Source: a virus (Duplodnaviria; Caudoviricetes). From it: DNA of 55,402 nt. The stretch is from IMG/VR virus record IMGVR_UViG_3300029448_000052, positions 1 through 55,402 of that record; one strand, 5' to 3'. Shown here one piece after another: positions 20,081-37,859 of this stretch (the first letter of the stretch is position 1; each line of letters opens with the position of its first letter). Both the position numbers and the translations under genes were made by a program. The notes beneath the pieces are model-generated. The model saw nothing but the letters and a program-made list of their open reading frames with translations, ran no database searches and had not been told where the DNA came from.

Positions 20081-20698
20081 ATGTTCTATGCAATATGTGA
20101 AGGTTTTCCAGGAAGTTCTGGTCCAGCCTACATTGTTTATAAGTTTCCTACGCTAGAATCTATGAAGCCGTGTGAAGCTGTAAATGAATATAGTATTATT
20201 TACAATGGCGATTCGCATAGGCAGCTAATTGATTTCTGCTCTTTAGAAGAGCTAATTGAGATAGCTACCTGTTTGTGTATTGCGTTTACTGGCACGGAAG
20301 AAGTTAAATTTGTTTCTCTCCAACAAGCGGCTGACTATGTCCACTCAGTAGTGGTAAAGAAAGCTAAATTATGGAAACCCGAAAAGGAGTCTGATATGTC
20401 TACTGTTCATGTAGATCAATTTAATAATAAAGCACAGAAGCATGAAGCAGAGGTAAAAGAAACTAAAAAACCTCGCACTCGTTTTAGGAATGATGCTCGT
20501 ATCATTCTGTTAAAAGATACACCTACTGTGCGTGAAGGCACTAATCGTTTTCGTAATATGAAAGTTATTATGGAAAGTGCTACAGTTGGTGAAGCAATAG
20601 CTAAACTTCGCGCACTTACTCCTGCTCCAGGATCTGGGGTGGATATTAAGATAGCATGCGACGCAGGTGTTATAAAACTAGACTGGCAAGAGGAATAG
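20081..20698 (+). CDS. hypothetical protein, with a possible in-frame internal start at 20396
   Basis: RBS hairpin upstream; internal AAGGAG-N6-ATG at 20396. Confidence 0.6.
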   Translation: MFYAICEGFPGSSGPAYIVYKFPTLESMKPCEAVNEYSIIYNGDSHRQLIDFCSLEELIEIATCLCIAFTGTEEVKFVSLQQAADYVHSVVVKKAKLWKPEKESDMSTVHVDQFNNKAQKHEAEVKETKKPRTRFRNDARIILLKDTPTVREGTNRFRNMKVIMESATVGEAIAKLRALTPAPGSGVDIKIACDAGVIKLDWQEE

Positions 20699-20700
20699 CT

Positions 20701-21597
20701 ATGTTACCCGAAGCTGTAGAAAGTTACTTCGGCTGGATAAATGAGCGGCACTCAATATATCAACGCAGATTATTGGGTGCGCCACCACCTTGGACTAATG
20801 ATTCTATCCTGCAAGAATATAAGTTTACAAACCCTTTCCGTGAAAACGATAGGGTAACTGTATGGATGCGTGATAAATGGACAAAGCCAAATGATAACCG
20901 CCCACATGGTGAGATGATATTTAACTGTTGTATGTTTCGTATGGTTGGCACAAGTGAGTTTGCTGAAGAACATGGGTGGGTGGAAGATTTTAACCCACAA
21001 AAAACCAAACACCTTATTGAGTCAAGACTTTCTCTTGGTAAAAGAACATTTACTGGTGCATATATAATCACTAACCAAGGACTCAAAGCACCAAAATCTG
21101 AGGTAGTAGTTGACCACTTCCTTACGCCAATCTGGGAAAATAAAGAAACGCTGGCGAAGATTGCCCAAAAAACGCAGTCGCTCCAAGCGTTACATGAAGC
21201 GATGGGTGCGTATAAAGGGTGGGGAGGAGGAGGTTTTATGTCATACGAGGTGGTTACCGACCTCAACTACACACCTGTACTGGACAAGGCAAAAGACCGT
21301 TTTACTTGGGCTAACGCAGGTCCGGGAGCTATACGAGGAATTAACCGTATCCTCGGAAGAGATTTAAAAAAGGGTATGACCCAGCCTACAGCTAATGAGA
21401 ATATGGTTAGATTATTAAAACATGCACCCTATCATGTTTTAGGACATATCCCACTTAAACAAATAGATATGCGTACTATTGAGCATAGCTTATGTGAGTG
21501 GGATAAATATGAGCGTGTAAGGTTAGGGCAAGGTAGACCAAGAAGTGTTTATCGCCCTACTTTATTAACAGATACACCAAAAGGAGCTGTAGAATGA
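20701..21597 (+). CDS. aGPT-Pplase1 family (amino-acid:DNA transferase-like) thymidine hypermodification enzyme
   Basis: WINERHSIY...PPPWTNDSILQEYKFTNPFRENDRVT, FMSYEVVTDL, GPGAIRG, IEHSLCEWDKY; adjacent to a TS homolog. Confidence 0.85.
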   Translation: MLPEAVESYFGWINERHSIYQRRLLGAPPPWTNDSILQEYKFTNPFRENDRVTVWMRDKWTKPNDNRPHGEMIFNCCMFRMVGTSEFAEEHGWVEDFNPQKTKHLIESRLSLGKRTFTGAYIITNQGLKAPKSEVVVDHFLTPIWENKETLAKIAQKTQSLQALHEAMGAYKGWGGGGFMSYEVVTDLNYTPVLDKAKDRFTWANAGPGAIRGINRILGRDLKKGMTQPTANENMVRLLKHAPYHVLGHIPLKQIDMRTIEHSLCEWDKYERVRLGQGRPRSVYRPTLLTDTPKGAVE

Positions 21598-22868
21598 AGT
21601 TTCTAATGACAATGTTTCAAATACAAGATTACGGTGGAATCATTAACCATGCTGAGTATCTTGCTAAAGGTTTAAAAGAGTTAGGCCATGAAGTTGATTT
21701 TACTATGCTCGTGCCTAAACATAAAGTAGCCGCTAAAAGTCCCCCACCAAAAAACTTTGACCAATATCGTAAGGTTGGCACAGGATATCTACACCATCAA
21801 GCTAGGGGGTGGGCTGGTTTACCTAAGATCCCTTATCTTTCTAAATACCAAAGGGATTTGTTTAAACAGAAGTGTAGCAAGTATGATGCTGTTTTATGGC
21901 ATATCCCTGTACCCACCATGAGTAAGGAAAATAAAGGTATTACCGATTGGTTAGATTTGTATGACCACGGTACTAAAAACATAGCTATCATACATGATGG
22001 CAATTTGCCTGAGTTATACCCACACCTAATCCATGTACGCGAGATGTTCCATTCTGCTGTATGTGTACATGAGTCAGCTATGATTTCTGGTAGTATGTTA
22101 CCCATACCCCGCAAGCTGATAGTAAATCCGTTTGATGTTGGTATGGCAGATGGTTGGACTGACTTTGAAAAACGTGATGGTTTTGCAGCGGTGCAAGTTT
22201 TTAAAGCATGGAAACGTGTAGATACTTTAGTCCGCGCGATTAGATACATGACCCACAAAGAACAAAAGCTAATCGGTGGTGAAGGTATAGAATACAGATA
22301 CATGACAAGCCGTGATAAATGTAAGCCTAAATATTTTGACGAGCTAGGCGAACGCATTTGGGATAGAGCCAAGCGTTATGGTATGGAGCATTTAGGAACT
22401 GTGCCAAATGATAAAGTGTTTGAAATACTAAAACAGGTAAAGCTACAGATTGACCCGAGCTACAGTAAAAAGTATTCTAATTTTGGCGCACATTTTAATA
22501 GGACAACAGTAGAAGCAATACTCTGTGGTGCTGTGCCTGTGGCTACTGATTGGGGTATGCGGGATAGTGAAATATTTAAAGCAGGACAAAACTATATACA
22601 AATCCCAGCAGAGTGTGAACCGTTTAAGTTTGCTGACATTATAGATAATGCCATACATGATAAAGATCAATGGCTTCGTATAAAAGAAAACAATCTAAAA
22701 TTACTAGAGTTGTTTGATATGCGTAATGTAGCTCAAAGCTATGTTGATCTGGTAAACAATACACAAGAACTACTTATCGGCACTCCAGATGCTAAAGCCA
22801 TGCAAAAATGCCATAAAAACCTAGAGTTCTTCGGTATTAGCTCTTCAGACACTGCTCGAGTGGTTTAG
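21594..22868 (+). CDS. GT-B fold glycosyltransferase, putative DNA-modifying
   Basis: GGIINH...LAKGLKELGHEVD N-terminus, KAWKRVD, EAILCGAVPV; coupled to the aGPT-Pplase gene. Confidence 0.8.
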   Translation: MKFLMTMFQIQDYGGIINHAEYLAKGLKELGHEVDFTMLVPKHKVAAKSPPPKNFDQYRKVGTGYLHHQARGWAGLPKIPYLSKYQRDLFKQKCSKYDAVLWHIPVPTMSKENKGITDWLDLYDHGTKNIAIIHDGNLPELYPHLIHVREMFHSAVCVHESAMISGSMLPIPRKLIVNPFDVGMADGWTDFEKRDGFAAVQVFKAWKRVDTLVRAIRYMTHKEQKLIGGEGIEYRYMTSRDKCKPKYFDELGERIWDRAKRYGMEHLGTVPNDKVFEILKQVKLQIDPSYSKKYSNFGAHFNRTTVEAILCGAVPVATDWGMRDSEIFKAGQNYIQIPAECEPFKFADIIDNAIHDKDQWLRIKENNLKLLELFDMRNVAQSYVDLVNNTQELLIGTPDAKAMQKCHKNLEFFGISSSDTARVV

Positions 22869-22927: not shown

Positions 22928-23905
22928 ATGCAGTCAATTTATGCAAGAGGAGTAAGCGAAGCTCTGTTTTTAGGTCAACAAGCCTTATTTTCGTCAGGTA
23001 AGGAAGTAAACACCCGAAATGGTTTAGCACTTGAGTTTCCTACCCCTGTTATGACAACTTATACCCATAGCAGGGAACGAGTTTTGTTTTACCCAGAACG
23101 TGATGCTAACCCTTATTTCCATTTAATGGAAAGTTTATGGATGTTAGCAGGACGAAATGATGTGCCTTGGATTTTAGGTTTTAACGGTCGCATGAATACA
23201 TATAGTGATGATGGTAAAACTTTCCACGGTGCTTATGGTTACAGATGGAGGGAATGGTTTGGTAAAGATCAGTTAAAGATTATTCTGTTTAGATTAGGCA
23301 CTTACCATAACGACCGTAGAGCTGTTTTAGGAATATGGGATCCTCACCAAGATTTAGTTGAAACTAATGATGGGAAAGATTACCCCTGTAATACCCAGAT
23401 ATATTTTTGGGAGCGTAAGGGTGAACTAAATATGACTGTAACTAACCGCAGTAATGATATGATCTGGGGTGCGTATGGTGCTAATGCTGTTCACATGTCT
23501 GTGCTGTTAGAGTATATGGCTGGGATGCTTGGATATGTTGTAGGCACATATTATCAATTTAGTAATAATCTTCATGCATATACAGATGTCTTAGAAAAGT
23601 TAGAAGGTATGCAAGCAGATTATGAACCTTACCTTACATTAGGTGATGATGGGTTGAGTTATAACCCACCAGCTTTAATTGATGATCCTGATACATTTGA
23701 CCAAGAGCTACAAAAATGGTTTTTAGATGAAGCAAGAGTGACTTACAATAATAGTTATTTAGGATCTACTTGTGGAAATATGCGTAAGTCATGGAGATTC
23801 TGGAAAAATAAAAGTTACGATAATGCTTTTCATTGTGCCAATGCAATAGAAGATCGTGCATGGCGTAGAGCCTGTGTGGATTGGTTGCAAAGGAGAATTA
23901 AGTGA
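22928..23905 (+). CDS. thymidylate synthase homolog, probably dUMP hydroxymethylase
   Basis: GAYGYRWR, catalytic YPCN, RSNDMIWGAYGAN (Asn indicates dUMP-type specificity), NLHAY. Confidence 0.85.
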   Translation: MQSIYARGVSEALFLGQQALFSSGKEVNTRNGLALEFPTPVMTTYTHSRERVLFYPERDANPYFHLMESLWMLAGRNDVPWILGFNGRMNTYSDDGKTFHGAYGYRWREWFGKDQLKIILFRLGTYHNDRRAVLGIWDPHQDLVETNDGKDYPCNTQIYFWERKGELNMTVTNRSNDMIWGAYGANAVHMSVLLEYMAGMLGYVVGTYYQFSNNLHAYTDVLEKLEGMQADYEPYLTLGDDGLSYNPPALIDDPDTFDQELQKWFLDEARVTYNNSYLGSTCGNMRKSWRFWKNKSYDNAFHCANAIEDRAWRRACVDWLQRRIK

Positions 23906-31372: not shown

Positions 31373-31740
31373 ACCTATAAATATGGTTTATGACCCAAAA
31401 AAGAGGCCGCTCAGACGCCGCTCGACTGTCTCTAATGTAGTGGGTAGTAGGGTAGGTACCCCTAAAATAATGACTAATTACCAAGGTTTCTGATTAGTTT
31501 GCTATATAGGAGGTAAATGCGGATAGGAGTAAATTTGTTTTTTATGATTTGATAATATACAATATCTCACTATACACATATATTCAATGAGTTAGCATAT
31601 GAATTACGAAGATTGATCCAATATCTCAGTAAAGTATTTCCGTCCGCGCGATCTCATTTGTGATAAATTTGAATTTAACATAATTCGTTTTTAGACCTAT
31701 TATGCAAAGTACCCCATCAGGTACGAGAGAGAGGAATCAA

Positions 31741-32277
31741 ATGGCTTTAGCAAAAGCAACTCATAAGCCCACGCTTGATGTCGTCGCAAATCCACGCAAA
31801 GAAAAATCCATCACCCCTAAACAAGAAGAATTTGCACGACTTTATGTTTGTGAGGATATTTCACAAACGGAGGCGGCTGTCCGTGCTGGATATTCTGTGA
31901 AATCAGCCCATGCTATTGCCTCCCAATTATTAAATGGACAAAGGTATCCCCATGTAGTAGAGAGGATCCGTGAGTTAAAGCAAGAGTTAGCTCGTAAGTA
32001 TGAGGTCAGTTTTGAGGGTCATGTCAAAAAACTTGCTGAGATCCGTGATGCTGCGATGACAGGAGGAAATTTTGCTGCTGCCGTTGCCGCTGAAAAATCA
32101 CGAGGCCAAGCCGCAGGGATCTATATTGATCGTAAAGAAATCTTGCATGGTAAAATTGATCAGATGAGTCGTGATGAAGTTATGCGAGAAATAAAAAGGA
32201 TACAAGAGGAGTTCCCCGCATTAGCAGTTGTTACTGAGGGTAATATAATGATTGATCATGATGAGGGTGACAATTAA
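31741..32277 (+). CDS. terS: terminase small subunit
   Basis: ITPKQEEFARLYV...QTEAAVRAGYS..SAH.IASQLL. Confidence 0.85.
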   Translation: MALAKATHKPTLDVVANPRKEKSITPKQEEFARLYVCEDISQTEAAVRAGYSVKSAHAIASQLLNGQRYPHVVERIRELKQELARKYEVSFEGHVKKLAEIRDAAMTGGNFAAAVAAEKSRGQAAGIYIDRKEILHGKIDQMSRDEVMREIKRIQEEFPALAVVTEGNIMIDHDEGDN

Positions 32278-33784: not shown

Positions 33785-34090
33785 ATGATACAGTATGTAG
33801 ATATGAATGATGATGGTAATATGGTGGTTACTAATGAAGACCCCAGTCGCCTCATGTTGTTAACGACTTTGTGGTATACGGAGACCACTATGGTTGATGG
33901 CACTCCGTTTACACCTAACCCTGATGTATACATGGTATCCTGGACAGATGAGTTAAGGCAACGTGCCGAGTTAGCAGGTCGTATCAATGCTCATAATGAG
34001 TGGGCAAGGGAGCAGGAGGGTAGACCAGTTGTCAAGTTTGCCAAGCAACAAGTCGTGCTTATCACGCCTACCACAACGGAGCTGGTGTGA
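33785..34090 (+). CDS. hypothetical protein
   Basis: TAGAAAGGAG RBS. Confidence 0.55.
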   Translation: MIQYVDMNDDGNMVVTNEDPSRLMLLTTLWYTETTMVDGTPFTPNPDVYMVSWTDELRQRAELAGRINAHNEWAREQEGRPVVKFAKQQVVLITPTTTELV

Positions 34091-34171
34091 TGGATGGCAC
34101 GTTAATCTTTTTAATAGTCTGCGATGCAGTGCTTTTGATAGCAATCGGTTTCAAAGTAAAGGAGGAAATGA

Positions 34172-34612
34172 GTGAGTAAACCAGAGTCCACGTTGTGGAA
34201 AAATCTGCGTGAGGGAACCAAAGATCTAGGCGTGTTTTGGACACGTCTAGAGTCTTGGTCTAGTCCTGGAGTACCTGACCTGCATGGCATCTTAGATGGT
34301 CATGCTTTTTGGCTTGAACTTAAAGTCCATAGGTTAAACTCGTTAAATAAAATTGCGCTGCGTCCTCACCAAATTGCTTGGCAGATAAGATATAGCAGAT
34401 ATTCTGGAAACGTCTGGAACTTGGTTGGTCATCCTTCCTCCCGAACTATAAATATATTTCGTGGTGCGAGAGCCATGGAGCTGACAGAAAAGAGGACAAA
34501 AGATGATCCCTTGATACCTGACTGGAGTTCGGGGATTCCTTACGATTGGACGGGTGCCATCAATCATATTCTATCATCATCTCGTCCCATCATAAAGGAG
34601 GAAGAGCTCTAG
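34172..34612 (+). CDS. PD-(D/E)XK nuclease, Holliday-junction resolvase / VRR-NUC-like
   Basis: PESTLW...RLES...GVPDL...WLELK...LRPHQIAW. Confidence 0.8.
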   Translation: MSKPESTLWKNLREGTKDLGVFWTRLESWSSPGVPDLHGILDGHAFWLELKVHRLNSLNKIALRPHQIAWQIRYSRYSGNVWNLVGHPSSRTINIFRGARAMELTEKRTKDDPLIPDWSSGIPYDWTGAINHILSSSRPIIKEEEL

Positions 34613-34843
34613 TTTCGTCATCAATTATCCTCGGTCTAAAGTCAAATCATCAATCTTCCTCAATCATTTTCCATTGACGATTTACGAGGATTCGCGAGGT
34701 ACGATCTCTTGACGATGATTGATGATGACAATAATATTTAATGATATTTAATGATAATTAAAGACTTGTCAATAAAACTCGGCCATGCTATTCTAACATC
34801 ATAAGCAATGGTGCTTATGGAGATGTCGTAGAAAGGACATGTC

Positions 34844-35260
34844 ATGACTGTAAAAACTGCTAAAAAATCAACTGCTAAAACTGTCGTTAAATCTGCTGAG
34901 TTAGTGGTCACTGATAAAGAAATCACCTATCCAGAAATCTGGGCATTTATCCAGGAGCATGCTGGTGGCAATGAGGCTAACGTCAAAATTGTGCCTCTTG
35001 ACAATGTTGACTTGGCAAGCGCAACGCCTGTCCCGTTTGGCTATGGTGGCAAGACAGGAGGCGTTCGTCAGGTTATACAAGATTGGATGCTTAAAGGTGT
35101 TGATGGTGATTTGTCGCTAAAAGCCTCTCTTAATAAAGCGGCACCATTAGGACACTCGCGTAAAAAGCCTGTCTGCTTACATGCTTTGATGCATGGGGGA
35201 TACAGCCCGTCCAGCAAATACTGGATGACACCATTCGTCAAACTTGTAGTCCAAGGCTAA
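34844..35260 (+). CDS. hypothetical protein, paralog A
   Basis: Has its own promoter, hairpin RBS and terminator; colinear with 35666..36112. Confidence 0.8.
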   Translation: MTVKTAKKSTAKTVVKSAELVVTDKEITYPEIWAFIQEHAGGNEANVKIVPLDNVDLASATPVPFGYGGKTGGVRQVIQDWMLKGVDGDLSLKASLNKAAPLGHSRKKPVCLHALMHGGYSPSSKYWMTPFVKLVVQG

Positions 35261-35266
35261 CATAGA

Positions 35267-35293
35267 GGGGGACGTCGGTTGGCGTCCCCTTTT
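35267..35293 (+). terminator. rho-independent terminator
   Basis: GGGGACGTC-GGTT-GGCGTCCCC followed by TTTT. Confidence 0.7.
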
Positions 35294-35554
35294 ACCGAGG
35301 AACCATGCTTGAGGAAGAGGGATGATGATTCCCTTTGCCCGAGGAAGACTTCCTATATAGGCATTAGTCTATATATATCATGTCATCATCAATCTTTCTC
35401 TAATAAGTTTTGATGAGTTTTGAGGATTTAACATTTTAAAATGAGCATGGTCACGAAAACTCAACTGCTACACTTTGTAAAAAACAAATAGCAAAGGGTT
35501 AAAAATGTGGTTGTTAATTTTTGCACTAATAGTGCTGGGTTTTTATGGCCTACT

Positions 35555-35611
35555 AAAAAAGTAAAAATAAATAAAAATAAGTATTGTGCGCGACGCTAAA
35601 GTGTGCATAAT
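35555..35611 (+). promoter_or_regulatory. sigma70-like promoter with A-tract UP element
   Basis: A-tracts at 35555-35580, TTGTGC, extended -10 TGTG-CATAAT. Confidence 0.5.
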
Positions 35612-35665
35612 AAAAATTGTAGCCGCTACTGGCTACCGCATTTAACCGTAGAAAGGGTTTATAAA

Positions 35666-36112
35666 ATGCAAAACACTACTAAAGGCAAGGCAGCCAAAAA
35701 TGCCACTACTACTACAGCCGTTGTACCTGTAGCCCCTACATTGCAGCATACTGGCAATGAGCTAACCTATGCTTGCCTATGGGCGTTTATTAACGGCCAA
35801 GCTGGCGGCAATTTGCACAATGTGCAGGTAGTGCCACTTAGCAATGTTAAGTTAAACGACGCACAGCCAGTACCCTTTGGTTTTAATGGTAAAGCTGGCG
35901 GTGTGCGGCACCAAATACAAACTTGGTTGTTAAACGGTGTTAAAGGTAATAACAGCCTAGCCGCAATACTGGCGGCAGCTAAACCGCTAGGCCATAGCAG
36001 CAAAAAGCCTATTTGTTTACTTGCCATGTTAAATGGCGGCTACAGCCCTAGCAGTGCAGTATGGGGTACTGGCTACGTTAAACTGGTAGTGCAGCCCCAG
36101 CCTACCAAATAA
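35666..36112 (+). CDS. hypothetical protein, paralog B (nearly TC/GA-free, Asp/Glu-depleted)
   Basis: ATG at 35666 after AACC-GTAGAAAG-GGTT; shares WAFI..AGGN, PVPFG, GGVR, PLGHS.KKP.CL.A..GGYSPSS and VKLVVQ with paralog A. Confidence 0.8.
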   Translation: MQNTTKGKAAKNATTTTAVVPVAPTLQHTGNELTYACLWAFINGQAGGNLHNVQVVPLSNVKLNDAQPVPFGFNGKAGGVRHQIQTWLLNGVKGNNSLAAILAAAKPLGHSSKKPICLLAMLNGGYSPSSAVWGTGYVKLVVQPQPTK

Positions 36113-36148
36113 CCCAGCGTTGGGGGTACTAGGGTACCCCCAGCCACT

Positions 36149-36178
36149 AACACCGCCCAGCTTGGGCGGTGTTTTTTT
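36149..36178 (+). terminator. rho-independent terminator
   Basis: AACACCGCCCA-GCT-TGGGCGGTGTT followed by a T run; a second hairpin lies at 36121-36142. Confidence 0.8.
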
Positions 36179-36395
36179 GTACCCCCGCGAGACCGTCCCC
36201 TTGGCTATAGCTCGGTCTGTAGCCATGTTTTGGACAAATCGTGTGGTCATAAAAAAGTTTTTGGATATTGACTTTTACTCGATCAAAAGCCGAGACCGCT
36301 ACCCCCCTTTACTGTAGAATCGTCATAGGTTCATTGCCCTAGAAAAATTTTCGATATATTTATAATATATTCGCATTATTGAGGAACCATGGATA

Positions 36396-37859
36396 ATGGA
36401 CATTCAGTTTGTACCAGAAGAGCAATTAAAGAAGTACGCCCATTTATTAGACCGCGCTAAAGAGATTACCCAAGCAGAGGCCAGCCAGCAGGATTTTATG
36501 GAGTATACGCAAACTGTTTGGCCTGAATTTATAAATGGACGCCACCATAAAATAATGGCAGAGAAGTTTAACCGTATAGCTAATGGAGATTTAAAGCGGT
36601 TAATTGTAAATATGCCACCGCGTCATACTAAAAGTGAGTTTGGCAGTTATTTATTACCTAGTTGGTTGATGGGTAAAAACCCCCGATTAAAGATAATGCA
36701 GACAACGCATACGGCAGAGTTAGCATTTAGATTTGGCCGAAAGGTGCGTAATTTAATGAACTCTACAGAGTATACTAGGGTTTTTCCTGGAGTAGAGTTA
36801 CGTGCGGATAGCCAAGCGGCAGGGCGTTGGGAGACAAGTAAGGGTGGAGAATATTTTGCGGCGGGAGTTGGTGGTGCGGTTACAGGGCGTGGTGCTGATT
36901 TATTGATTATTGATGACCCACATAGTGAGCAAGATGCTTTAAGCCCTACAGCATTAGAGCATGCTTATGAGTGGTATACATCTGGTCCGCGCCAGCGTTT
37001 ACAACCAGGAGGTGCGATTGTCATTATTATGACGCGTTGGGCAGATAATGATTTAACAGGCAAATTGATAAAGCAACAGGGTAGAGATATACTGGCAGAT
37101 AAATGGGAAGTGGTTGAGTTCCCAGCGTTAATGCCAGATAGTGAAGAACCCCTTTGGCCTGAGTTTTGGAAAAAGGAAGATTTGTTAAGTGTTAAGGGTA
37201 GTTTGTCAGTTGGTAAGTGGGAGGCGCAATGGCAGCAAAACCCTACTGGCGATATGGCAGCTATACTTAAACGTGAGTGGTGGAATGTGTGGAAAAAAGA
37301 TGATATACCACCATTAGAGTATGTAATGCAGAGTTATGATACAGCATACAGTAAAAAAGAGAGTGCGGATTTTAGTGCTATAACAACGTGGGGTGTTTTT
37401 TATCCAGAGGATGGAGGACCAGCAAACATTATTCTGTGTGATGCAAAACGTGGTAGGTGGGACTTTCCTGATTTAAGGAGGCGAGCACTTGAGGAGTATA
37501 AATACTGGGAGCCAGAATGTGTACTAATTGAGGCAAAAGCCAGTGGTATGCCGCTTACTCAGGAGTTACGCAATATGGGTATACCTGTGATGAATTATAC
37601 ACCTAGCAGGGGTAATGATAAATTTACAAGAGTAAACTCTATTGCGCCATTGTTTGAAAGTGGTTTAGTATGGTCGCCAGATACTCGTTGGGCAGAAGAA
37701 GTTGTAGAAGAGTGTGCAGCGTTTCCCGCAGGGGAGCATGATGATTATGTTGATACAGTTACCCAAGCTCTACGTAGATTTAGAGAAGGCGGTTTTATTC
37801 AGCACCCCGAAGATTATGAGGATGATGAAGCTGTCCCTGTACAAAGGATATATTACTAA
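36396..37859 (+). CDS. terL: terminase large subunit
   Basis: NMPPRHTKS, TGRGADLLIIDDP, SYDTA, IEAKASG, HDDYVD. Confidence 0.95.
   Translation: MDIQFVPEEQLKKYAHLLDRAKEITQAEASQQDFMEYTQTVWPEFINGRHHKIMAEKFNRIANGDLKRLIVNMPPRHTKSEFGSYLLPSWLMGKNPRLKIMQTTHTAELAFRFGRKVRNLMNSTEYTRVFPGVELRADSQAAGRWETSKGGEYFAAGVGGAVTGRGADLLIIDDPHSEQDALSPTALEHAYEWYTSGPRQRLQPGGAIVIIMTRWADNDLTGKLIKQQGRDILADKWEVVEFPALMPDSEEPLWPEFWKKEDLLSVKGSLSVGKWEAQWQQNPTGDMAAILKREWWNVWKKDDIPPLEYVMQSYDTAYSKKESADFSAITTWGVFYPEDGGPANIILCDAKRGRWDFPDLRRRALEEYKYWEPECVLIEAKASGMPLTQELRNMGIPVMNYTPSRGNDKFTRVNSIAPLFESGLVWSPDTRWAEEVVEECAAFPAGEHDDYVDTVTQALRRFREGGFIQHPEDYEDDEAVPVQRIYY

What the first reader, a model, noticed from the sequence alone, without database searches (positions are those of the whole stretch)
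34844..36112. Tandem paralogs, one of them recoded at protein level to avoid GA/TC
Seen: 34844..35260 and 35666..36112 are colinear homologs, each with its own promoter, hairpin RBS and terminator. Paralog A has 11 Asp/Glu and paralog B has 2. Acidic residues need GAN codons, and they are replaced position by position: YPEIW>YACLW, IQEH>INGQ, GNEA>GNLH, PLDNVDL>PLSNVKL, IQDW>IQTW, GVDGD>GVKGN. All Ser in B use AGY. The RBS hairpin stem also changes from ATGTC/GACAT to AACC/GGTT while keeping the AGAAAG loop. Inference: a DNA-level constraint overrides amino-acid choice. B could be a bootstrap copy that works from incoming virion DNA, with A taking over later. The basic protein could be a reader of modified DNA, a transcription helper or an anti-defence factor. 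This looks like an undescribed system.
Basis: partly seen in the sequence, partly recalled or inferred. Interest (0 to 1): 0.92.

Follow-up and report, generated by a model that had tools for sequence, protein, structure and literature searches.

The report
Phage gene purged of GA/TC dinucleotides
A marine phage that chemically decorates its own DNA keeps one small gene cassette, a copy of the gene next door, almost free of the two-letter words GA and TC. It even gave up acidic amino acids to do so, probably so that this cassette escapes the decoration.

Summary
Window 35462-36188 (727 b) holds 0 TC and 4 GA, against one GA/TC per 9.9 b genome-wide. It is the only such stretch in the 55-kb phage genome, and GA/TC is the only depleted dinucleotide (O/E 0.04 vs 0.85).

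The island matches one expression cassette: a conserved 19-codon micro-ORF, a promoter, a 5' hairpin, paralog B and two terminators. Paralog A next door is ordinary.

I collected 190 distinct family genes from relatives.
- All 88 A copies carry 40-72 GA+TC.
- Of 102 B copies, 24 carry none and 68 lie below every synonymous resampling.
- In 52 purged B alleles, Ser is TCN/AGY 1/386, and T|C codon junctions are 1 of 1649.

This is selection at the nucleic-acid level, not only on protein charge. Two far-diverged lineages have perfect islands too.

The phage is a relative of HTVC023P-type pelagiphages with a thymidine-hypermodification cluster. My best reading (about 45%) is that TC is the modification context and the cassette is kept site-free, so that its expression is blind to modification.

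Against this, 32 B alleles are unpurged in phages with the same genes. No modification data exist. The A/B protein has no known fold or family.

The parts
35462..36188 (.). GA/TC-purged island: 0 TC and 4 GA in 727 b
   Evidence: It is the only such stretch in the genome. Only GA/TC is anomalous among the 10 dinucleotide classes.
35666..36112 (+). Paralog B, 148 aa: basic, 2 acidic residues, disordered Lys/Ala/Thr-rich N-terminus followed by an alpha/beta domain
   Evidence: AF2 model pLDDT 82.6. ATG start supported by the conserved RBS in relatives.
34844..35260 (+). Paralog A, 138 aa: 11 acidic residues and ordinary GA/TC content (20 GA, 22 TC)
   Evidence: All 88 distinct A alleles carry 40-72 GA+TC.
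35505..35564 (+). Conserved 19-codon hydrophobic micro-ORF with its own RBS, inside the island
   Evidence: The sequence. The ORF and its hydrophobic character are kept in most aligned relatives, purged or not.
35584..35611 (+). B promoter-like element: TTGTGC, 16 nt, CATAAT
   Evidence: Read and conserved in relatives. It is below the threshold of the consensus scan, so it is inferred.
35619..35636 (+). 5'UTR stem-loop GTAGCC/GGCTAC
   Evidence: Fold. Compensatory changes in relatives (GTAAGC/GCTTAC, AAACGC/GCGTTT, TGTTCC/GGAACA) were read by eye from the alignment.
35638..35669 (+). RBS hairpin: stem AACC/GGTT, loop GUAGAAAG. The RBS lies at 35648-35656.
36119..36180 (+). Two terminator hairpins (36119-36144 and 36149-36173) followed by a T run
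   Evidence: -39.9 kcal/mol, z -3.7.
34766..34843 (+). A promoter-like element (TTGTCA, 17 nt, TATTCT), a 5' stem-loop at 34800-34819 and an RBS hairpin at 34820-34843
35263..35294 (+). Terminator hairpin after A
   Evidence: -22.8 kcal/mol, z -4.75.
34172..34612 (+). PD-(D/E)xK-type nuclease-like gene, always found upstream of A
   Evidence: PHROG 2165/93/5702 hits. Synteny in relatives. The PD...ELK motif was read from the translation.
36396..37859 (+). Large terminase subunit, always found downstream of B
20656..21597 (+). PF18723 (HMUDK_hel) protein, homologous to PaMx11 gp50 and YuA gp14, and annotated as aGPT-Pplase in one phage record
21594..22868 (+). GT-B glycosyltransferase
22928..23905 (+). 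Thymidylate-synthase homolog (candidate dUMP hydroxymethylase)

Best explanation
The B cassette is a transcription unit that selection keeps free of the dinucleotide TC on both strands (TC, and GA as its complement). It comprises a micro-ORF, a promoter, 5' hairpins, gene B and terminators.

The most likely reason is that 5'-TC-3' is the context in which this pelagiphage-like virus hypermodifies thymidine. The candidate machinery is a TS-like dUMP hydroxymethylase, an aGPT-Pplase-family PF18723 protein and a glycosyltransferase, all beside PolA. A unit without TC carries no bulky adducts. Host RNA polymerase can then read it equally well from fully modified virion DNA and from fresh replicas.

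On this reading B is the modification-blind copy of a small basic protein, and A next door is the ordinary, modification-sensitive copy.

Shown: the purge, its limits, its age, and its maintenance by selection.
Inferred: the link to T modification, the TC context, the effect on transcription, and the protein's role.
For: 1. The purge acts at the nucleic-acid level and on both strands.
- In 52 purged B alleles, Ser TCN/AGY is 1/386 (A: 642/202) and TTC, ATC, GTC, CTC are 0, 0, 1, 0.
- GGA is 2/775. T|C junctions are 1 of 1649 (A: 608 of 2582). G|A junctions are 0 of 2647 (A: 741 of 3407).
- Flanks are purged too.
- A motif avoided together with its reverse complement points to duplex DNA.

2. 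The purge is local and specific.
- There is one island per genome in G000, G001, G004 and G010.
- Only GA/TC is depleted.
- The limits match promoter to terminator.

3. The purge is old and maintained.
- 24 of 102 distinct B alleles have 0 GA and 0 TC.
- Perfect islands occur in lineages of 38% and 55% GC, with B at about 35% identity.
- 36 of 78 full-length family clusters have at most 1 acidic residue, and 35 have at least 7.

4. A thymidine-modification cluster is present.
- It is in the window.
- The PF18723 gene is in 9 of 9 large relatives. The glycosyltransferase was sought in 5 of them and found in all 5.
- The same pair of genes is reported for HTVC023P-type clades V, VIII and IX (PMC9599517, passages).

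5. Published analogies.
- Modified T in M6, ViI and phiW-14 sits in TG/TC contexts (PMC6449724, passages).
- hmU templates raise E. coli RNAP output to 350%. 5-HMUDK phosphorylation cuts it to 10% of that, and a bulky cage abolishes it (PMC6457204, passages).

6. Alleles with GA 0 but TC 16-23 (L046, L048, L052) leave the template strand site-free. That fits a polymerase-reading constraint.
Against: - There are no chemical or signal-level data on modification in this phage, and none on its sequence context.
- The canonical P-loop 5-hmdU DNA kinase was not found. The only convincing Walker A motif in the window is in the helicase; the record is about 94% complete.
- 32 of 102 B alleles are unpurged. 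All 3 complete genomes with such alleles carry the same PF18723 and GT genes. No gene-content difference explains the state.
- All other genes, including early replication genes, have normal GA/TC. Modification therefore cannot be an absolute block to transcription.
- Natural hypermodified thymines in a T7 promoter had only moderate effects, positive or negative, with T7 RNAP (PMC11550810, abstract).
- Alleles with GA 10-11 but TC 4-5 (L049, L054) show the opposite strand bias to L046.
- No island exists in the T-hypermodifying phages PaMx11 and YuA (first 50 kb of each).
Confidence: 0.45

Rival explanations
1. Safe harbour against host defences that attack modified bases. The cassette lacks modification sites so that modification-dependent glycosylases or type IV nucleases cannot damage it. 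It encodes a counter-defence protein that must be made while the rest of the genome is under attack.
For: - The site-free logic is the same as in the best explanation.
- Such defences against hypermodified phages exist: glycosylases, END nucleases and GmrSD-type enzymes. I saw only search listings and abstract starts.
- It would explain why purging varies among close relatives and why B alleles are shuffled between backbones, if host defence pressure varies.
- Template-strand-only purged alleles fit lesion-blocked transcription.
Against: - A/B shows no similarity to any known anti-defence family. Pfam, PHROGs and NCBIfam were searched. PADLOC was not searched.
- A 55-kb genome with about 5,600 target sites would be destroyed whether or not one gene stays intact.
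- No host or defence data exist.
Confidence: 0.2
2. A DNA site, not a gene, is being protected. The packaging recognition or cleavage region (pac or cos) next to the terminase gene must stay unmodified for the terminase or the neighbouring nuclease.
For: - The island always lies between the nuclease-like gene and TerL, even in distant lineages.
- GA/TC-rich TCATCAAT/ATTGATGA repeats flank it.
Against: - The purged stretch is 530-1180 b and follows promoter-to-terminator limits. That is far longer than known packaging sites.
- Protein sequence was sacrificed along the whole ORF.
- TerS lies 3.4 kb upstream.
- Strand-specific alleles do not fit a duplex binding site.
Confidence: 0.1
3. The modified base is G in 5'-GA-3', a DpdA-type 7-deazaguanine as in phages iggy and CAjan, rather than T in TC.
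For: GA is a proven strict DpdA motif in phage iggy, with about 97% of GA sites modified (PMC10484667, passages).
Against: - There is no TGT-family (PF01702) or QueC (PF06508) match in the window, while the controls rang in 14 of 14 genomes.
- The encoded cluster is of the thymidine type.
Confidence: 0.07
4. An RNA-level constraint: the mRNA avoids UC and GA to escape an endoribonuclease.
For: Some alleles purge only the sense-strand GA.
Against: - The two avoided words are reverse complements of each other, which an RNA enzyme would not require.
- The purge covers the untranscribed promoter region and the stretch past the terminators.
Confidence: 0.05
5. Mutation bias, such as TC-specific cytosine deamination of a highly transcribed unit, or selection on protein charge alone.
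For: AA/TT is somewhat enriched in the island (O/E 1.34 vs 1.06). B is basic.
Against: - Island GC is higher than the genome's, not lower.
- Conserved serines switched from TCN to AGY. Deamination cannot produce that switch.
- Codon junctions and flanks are purged.
- Counts of zero persist over deep divergence.
Confidence: 0.03

Closest known systems
Context-specific thymidine hypermodification of phages M6, PaMx11, ViI and phiW-14 (TS homolog, 5-HMUDK, aGPT-Pplase)
   Same: TS homolog, aGPT-Pplase-family protein, HD nucleotidase and PolA lie in one cluster. Published resistant restriction sites point to modified T in TG/TC contexts (PMC6449724, passages).
   Different: No P-loop kinase was found here, and a glycosyltransferase is present instead. 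The modification is unknown. PaMx11 and YuA have no dinucleotide-free island.
GA-motif dPreQ0 modification by DpdA (phages iggy, CAjan)
   Same: A two-letter modification motif, GA, covering about a sixth of the target base (PMC10484667, passages).
   Different: No DpdA/TGT or QueC gene is present here. The passages I read of that paper report no site-free gene.
Restriction-site avoidance in phage genomes (recalled, not from a call)
   Same: Selection removes a short DNA word that an enzyme recognises.
   Different: Classical avoidance concerns 4-6-bp words across a whole genome and works through synonymous change. Here a dinucleotide is removed from one cassette only, at the cost of nearly all Asp and Glu residues, and the enzyme avoided is probably the phage's own.
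SPO1 TF1, a small basic protein preferring hmU DNA (recalled, not from a call)
   Same: A small basic phage protein in a phage with modified thymine.
   Different: No sequence or fold similarity was detected between A/B and any known family. DNA binding by A/B is untested.

Membership tests
Thymidine hypermodification pathway (Lee et al. 2018, 2021) | Thymidylate-synthase homolog that makes 5-hmdUMP | tested here: met
   22928-23905: PF00303 E 1.7e-18 and phrog_5131 E 2e-102. Activity is not testable here.
Thymidine hypermodification pathway (Lee et al. 2018, 2021) | aGPT-Pplase-family protein | tested here: met
   20656-21597: PF18723 E 1.7e-50. It is a homolog of PaMx11 gp50 and YuA gp14, and is annotated as aGPT-Pplase in phage Sonora.
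Thymidine hypermodification pathway (Lee et al. 2018, 2021) | P-loop 5-hmdU DNA kinase | tested here: not met
   In a Walker A scan of all ORFs of at least 80 aa, the only convincing hit is the helicase. The record is about 94% complete, so the gene could lie in the missing part.
Thymidine hypermodification pathway (Lee et al. 2018, 2021) | Modified thymidine in virion DNA, in a defined sequence context | not testable with these tools
   Only assembled contigs of public runs were served.
DpdA / 7-deazaguanine modification | TGT-family transglycosylase and preQ0 synthesis genes | tested here: not met
   PF01702 and PF06508: no match in the window. Controls rang in 14 of 14 genomes.
Small terminase subunit | Terminase_2 or related domain in A or B | tested here: not met
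   No Pfam, PHROG or NCBIfam hit for A or B. A Terminase_2 gene lies at 31702-32277.
OmpA-like domain (top Foldseek rows) | Significant structural match | tested here: not met
Restriction-site avoidance | A 4-6-bp word depleted genome-wide | tested here: not met
   The depleted word is a dinucleotide, confined to one 727-b stretch.

The most novel reading that the evidence does not exclude
DNA hypermodification in these abundant marine phages acts as a genome-wide damper on host transcription. The phage carries a hard-wired exception: a cassette recoded down to its amino acids so that it holds no modification site. Its product would be a pioneer factor, made from the incoming modified genome, that makes modified DNA usable. 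The island would also read out directly the TC specificity of an uncharacterised thymidine-modifying pathway.
Probability: 0.3. Interest if true: 0.95.

Novelty: new variant of a known kind. Interest (0 to 1): 0.85.

Why it matters
If the reading holds, three things follow.
- This would be the first case where a phage's own base modification has visibly shaped a protein sequence. Nearly all Asp and Glu residues were given up because their codons contain the target word.
- It would reveal the sequence context of a modification pathway from sequence alone.
- It would mean hypermodification has a cost or a regulatory role in gene expression, beyond protection from nucleases.

The pattern is widespread in marine metagenomes: 10 studies hold this stretch or a part of it, at sampled-word shares of 0.20-0.98. 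It offers a simple genomic signature, a gene-sized stretch free of one dinucleotide, for finding modification motifs in uncultured viruses.

It also defines a new family of small basic proteins. About half of its members lack acidic residues altogether.

Tried and rejected
Searches for relatives or function of A/B that gave nothing:
- Megablast of 34000-37000 against GenBank phages.
- tblastn of A against 50,697 phage records.
- Pfam, PHROGs and NCBIfam for A and B.
- Foldseek against PDB and BFVD, best E 0.45 and 1.2.
- Profile search against PDB sequences, 0 hits at E up to 10.
- ESM Atlas returned only the family's own unnamed clusters. The nearest named one, DUF3489, scored 0.76, which I treat as chance.

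Ideas tested and dropped:
- Another dinucleotide is purged in the 'unpurged' B alleles. None is below O/E 0.35.
- Unpurged B alleles arose by gene conversion from A. The longest identical run is 16 nt or less, and nucleotide identity is 50-65%.
- A gene-content difference separates genomes with purged and unpurged B. Only small ORFs differ, in a sample of 4 versus 3 genomes, so this is not informative.
- Genome-wide coding-strand TC avoidance. TC is ordinary for an AT-rich codon usage, and B is the only outlier among 59 ORFs.
- Similar islands in other T-hypermodifying phages. None was found in PaMx11 or YuA (first 50 kb of each) or in the HTVC027P terminase region.

Searches for distant members:
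- P0140 and P0144 were not found in viral contigs.
- The PF18723 search of the L230 record found nothing. That record is 13 kb and 22% complete. Four metagenome loci were not held, so they were not searched.

A read-depth test of modification could not be done, because all 24 runs are served as contigs only. Laying the contigs shows only that the island sequence recurs unchanged in 4 runs of 4 studies.

Supplementary files were not opened. The restriction tables of PMC6449724 and the genome tables of PMC9599517 may bear on the TC context and on which clades carry A/B.

Literature searches for a described modification-site-free gene surfaced none. This covers only the held library.
Full report
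WHAT THE WINDOW IS. The window is a whole IMG/VR virus record of 55,402 b, about 94% complete. Its large terminase is 57-62% identical to those of Pelagibacter phages HTVC027P and HTVC023P. It carries a nucleotide-modification cluster beside an A-family DNA polymerase:
- A PF18723 (HMUDK_hel) protein at 20656-21597. It is homologous to PaMx11 gp50 and YuA gp14, and one phage record annotates the homolog as an aGPT-Pplase.
- A GT-B glycosyltransferase at 21594-22868.
- A thymidylate-synthase homolog at 22928-23905.
- An HD 5'-nucleotidase-like gene.

Passages of PMC9599517 report the TS plus aG/PT-PPlase1 pair in HTVC023P-type clades V, VIII and IX. I found no P-loop 5-hmdU DNA kinase. The only convincing Walker A motif is in the helicase.

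THE OBSERVATION. A (34844-35260) and B (35666-36112) are colinear paralogs, 61% identical over 115 residues. The GA/TC-poor stretch runs from 35462 to 36188. It holds 0 TC and 4 GA in 727 b, where the genome has one GA/TC per 9.9 b. The five longest GA/TC-free gaps of the window all lie in it. Of the ten strand-symmetric dinucleotide classes, only GA/TC is anomalous: O/E is 0.04 inside and 0.85 outside, and the longest gap is 331 b against about 86 b expected.

Resampling synonymous codons for B's own amino-acid sequence gives 9.7 GA and 15.8 TC. It never gives fewer than 14 in total in 2000 draws. The observed total is 2. A behaves as expected: 42 observed against about 39.

ANATOMY. The island is a cassette, not just an ORF. 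In order, it contains:
- A 19-codon hydrophobic micro-ORF with its own RBS (35505-35564). It is conserved in most aligned relatives.
- A sigma70-like promoter (TTGTGC, 16 nt, CATAAT). It is inferred from conservation and lies below the scan threshold.
- A 5' stem-loop whose stem changes by compensatory pairs among relatives.
- An RBS hairpin.
- Gene B.
- Two strong terminator hairpins.

The first GA follows 9 b after the T run. A has the same layout. The TAGAAAGG ribosome-binding motif is shared with about a dozen other genes, so it is not special to this pair.

RELATIVES. Searches of viral and metagenome contigs gave 208 loci. Where a locus is long enough, the order is nuclease-like gene, A, B, TerL. 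I pooled 190 distinct family genes after dropping two that contained N.
- All 88 A-type genes have 40-72 GA+TC.
- The 102 B-type genes range from 0 to 43.
- 24 B alleles have no GA and no TC. 49 have no TC. 30 have no GA.
- 68 B alleles lie below the minimum of 300 synonymous resamplings.

A caveat on these proportions: the metagenome search was seeded with acid-free proteins, so they over-represent purged alleles.

In the 52 B alleles with at most 5 sites:
- Ser is TCN/AGY 1/386 (A: 642/202).
- TTC, ATC, GTC and CTC number 0, 0, 1 and 0.
- GGA is 2 of 777 Gly codons.
- T|C codon junctions are 1 of 1649 (A: 608 of 2582).
- G|A junctions are 0 of 2647 (A: 741 of 3407).

The 150 b upstream and 70 b downstream are purged as well. 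This excludes selection on protein charge alone. Cytosine deamination is also unlikely, because it cannot turn TCN serine codons into AGY, and the island is richer in GC than the genome, not poorer.

DEPTH AND DYNAMICS. Two far-diverged lineages show the same thing.
- L235 (38% GC) has the nuclease gene, an A-type gene, then a B-type gene with no acidic residue, inside 700 b with zero GA/TC, then TerL.
- L230 (55% GC) has an island of about 1,180 b with a single GA. It holds a B-type gene and a second acid-free ORF.

Among 78 full-length cluster representatives of the family, 36 have at most one Asp or Glu and 35 have at least seven. The split into an acid-free half and an ordinary half therefore runs through the whole family.

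Within the window's own group the state is labile.
- GA/TC O/E of the B unit forms a continuum from 0.01 to 0.74. A units lie at 0.88-1.07.
- Some alleles have GA 0 but TC 16-23 (L046, L048, L052). Others have GA 10-11 but TC 4-5 (L049, L054).
- Rooted on A, the least purged B alleles are basal. A second unpurged clade nests inside purged ones.
- On a TerL tree, purged and unpurged alleles sit on nearly identical backbones. B cassettes are therefore exchanged by recombination.
- I found no sign of gene conversion from A.

WHAT DRIVES IT. The word and its reverse complement are both removed, including in untranscribed flanks. That points to a duplex-DNA feature. Dinucleotide specificity is typical of phage base-modifying enzymes.
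- For M6, ViI and phiW-14, resistant restriction sites implicate modified T in TG/TC contexts (PMC6449724, passages).
- For phage iggy, DpdA modifies G strictly in GA (PMC10484667, passages).
- The window has no TGT-family or QueC gene but does have the thymidine-type cluster. T in TC is therefore the more economical reading.

Why keep a cassette site-free? In vitro, hmU templates boost E. coli RNAP to 350%. Phosphorylation by 5-HMUDK reduces output to a tenth of that, and a bulky adduct abolishes it (PMC6457204, passages). A TC-free unit would be read the same whatever the modification state. The alleles that clear only the template strand fit this.

The pair then makes sense as one protein supplied from a modification-sensitive gene (A) and a modification-blind gene (B). 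Whether B acts first, from virion DNA, or last, when the DNA pool is fully modified, cannot be told.

WHAT SPEAKS AGAINST. There are no data on the modification itself. The kinase is missing. The PF18723 gene is present in all 9 large relatives tested and the GT in the 5 of them searched for it, including 3 complete genomes whose B is unpurged. No gene-content difference explains the state. Every other gene has ordinary GA/TC content, so modification cannot block transcription outright. With T7 RNAP, natural hypermodified thymines had only moderate effects (PMC11550810, abstract). PaMx11 and YuA show no island.

The main rival is a safe-harbour gene that stays intact under modification-dependent host defences. 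It shares the site-free logic and would better explain the lability. A packaging-site reading fits the position next to TerL, but not the length, the transcription-unit limits or the strand-specific alleles.

THE PROTEIN. B is basic (12 Lys+Arg, 2 acidic). It has a disordered Lys/Ala/Thr-rich N-terminus and a confidently modelled alpha/beta domain (pLDDT 82.6, pTM 0.76). Nothing similar was found in PDB, BFVD, Pfam, PHROGs or NCBIfam. A profile search of 1.84 billion representatives found 97 clusters, nearly all about 150 aa. Nucleic-acid binding is a guess from charge only.

REALITY OF THE SEQUENCE. Contigs from four runs of four studies carry the island with 0-2 differences. Ten studies hold this stretch or a part of it, at sampled-word shares of 0.20-0.98. 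It is not an assembly artefact.

VERDICT. Nucleic-acid-level selection against GA/TC in one cassette is established. The link to thymidine hypermodification in TC context, and to modification-blind expression, is the best-supported explanation, at about 45%. The searches I ran found no published description of such an island. I rate it as a new variant of motif avoidance, of high interest.

Noticed in passing
window 35505-35564: A 19-codon hydrophobic micro-ORF (MWLLIFALIVLGFYGLLKK) with a good RBS lies between A and B. An equivalent ORF is kept in most aligned relatives, whether B is purged or not. It may be a small membrane peptide.
   Followed up: partly
window 34577-34735 and 35305-35400: The GA/TC-richest 150 b of the genome (37 sites, mean 15.1, sd 3.9) lies just upstream of A. 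It is built of TCATCAAT/ATTGATGA-type repeats in both orientations, and a second set sits just upstream of the island. These could be binding sites for a regulator or packaging protein.
   Followed up: partly
L230 4533-4727: In a distant 55%-GC phage, the island holds a second basic ORF of 64 codons with no acidic residue, downstream of the B-type gene. No A-type copy was seen in the ORF listing of that 10-kb locus.
   Followed up: partly
window 13750-35656: The motif [ACG]TAGAAAGG sits 8-9 nt before the start codons of about a dozen genes (13767, 18972, 20081, 28288, 30772, 32348, 33561, 33785, A, B). There are 23 matches with up to 1 mismatch against 14 expected.
   Followed up: no
window, whole: TS homolog and aGPT-Pplase-like genes are present, but no P-loop 5-hmdU DNA kinase was found by a Walker A scan. 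With the glycosyltransferase, this hints at a pathway different from that of M6 and ViI.
   Followed up: partly
G010 (L148, L149) contig ends: Nearly identical B genes lie at both ends of the 60,123-b record. This is probably terminal redundancy of a circularly permuted assembly. In this phage two extra small genes separate A and B.
   Followed up: partly
L009 vs L062/L063; L098 vs L071-L074: Phages with almost identical TerL N-termini carry B alleles that differ by about 30 GA/TC sites. The B cassette is therefore swapped between backbones.
   Followed up: partly
L232 39217-39786 (PaMx11 gp49); L233 12053-12616 (YuA gp13): The proven or putative 5-hmdU DNA kinases of these phages are labelled 'terminase small subunit' in the public records (Table 1 of PMC8989533). 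The label is misleading.
   Followed up: no
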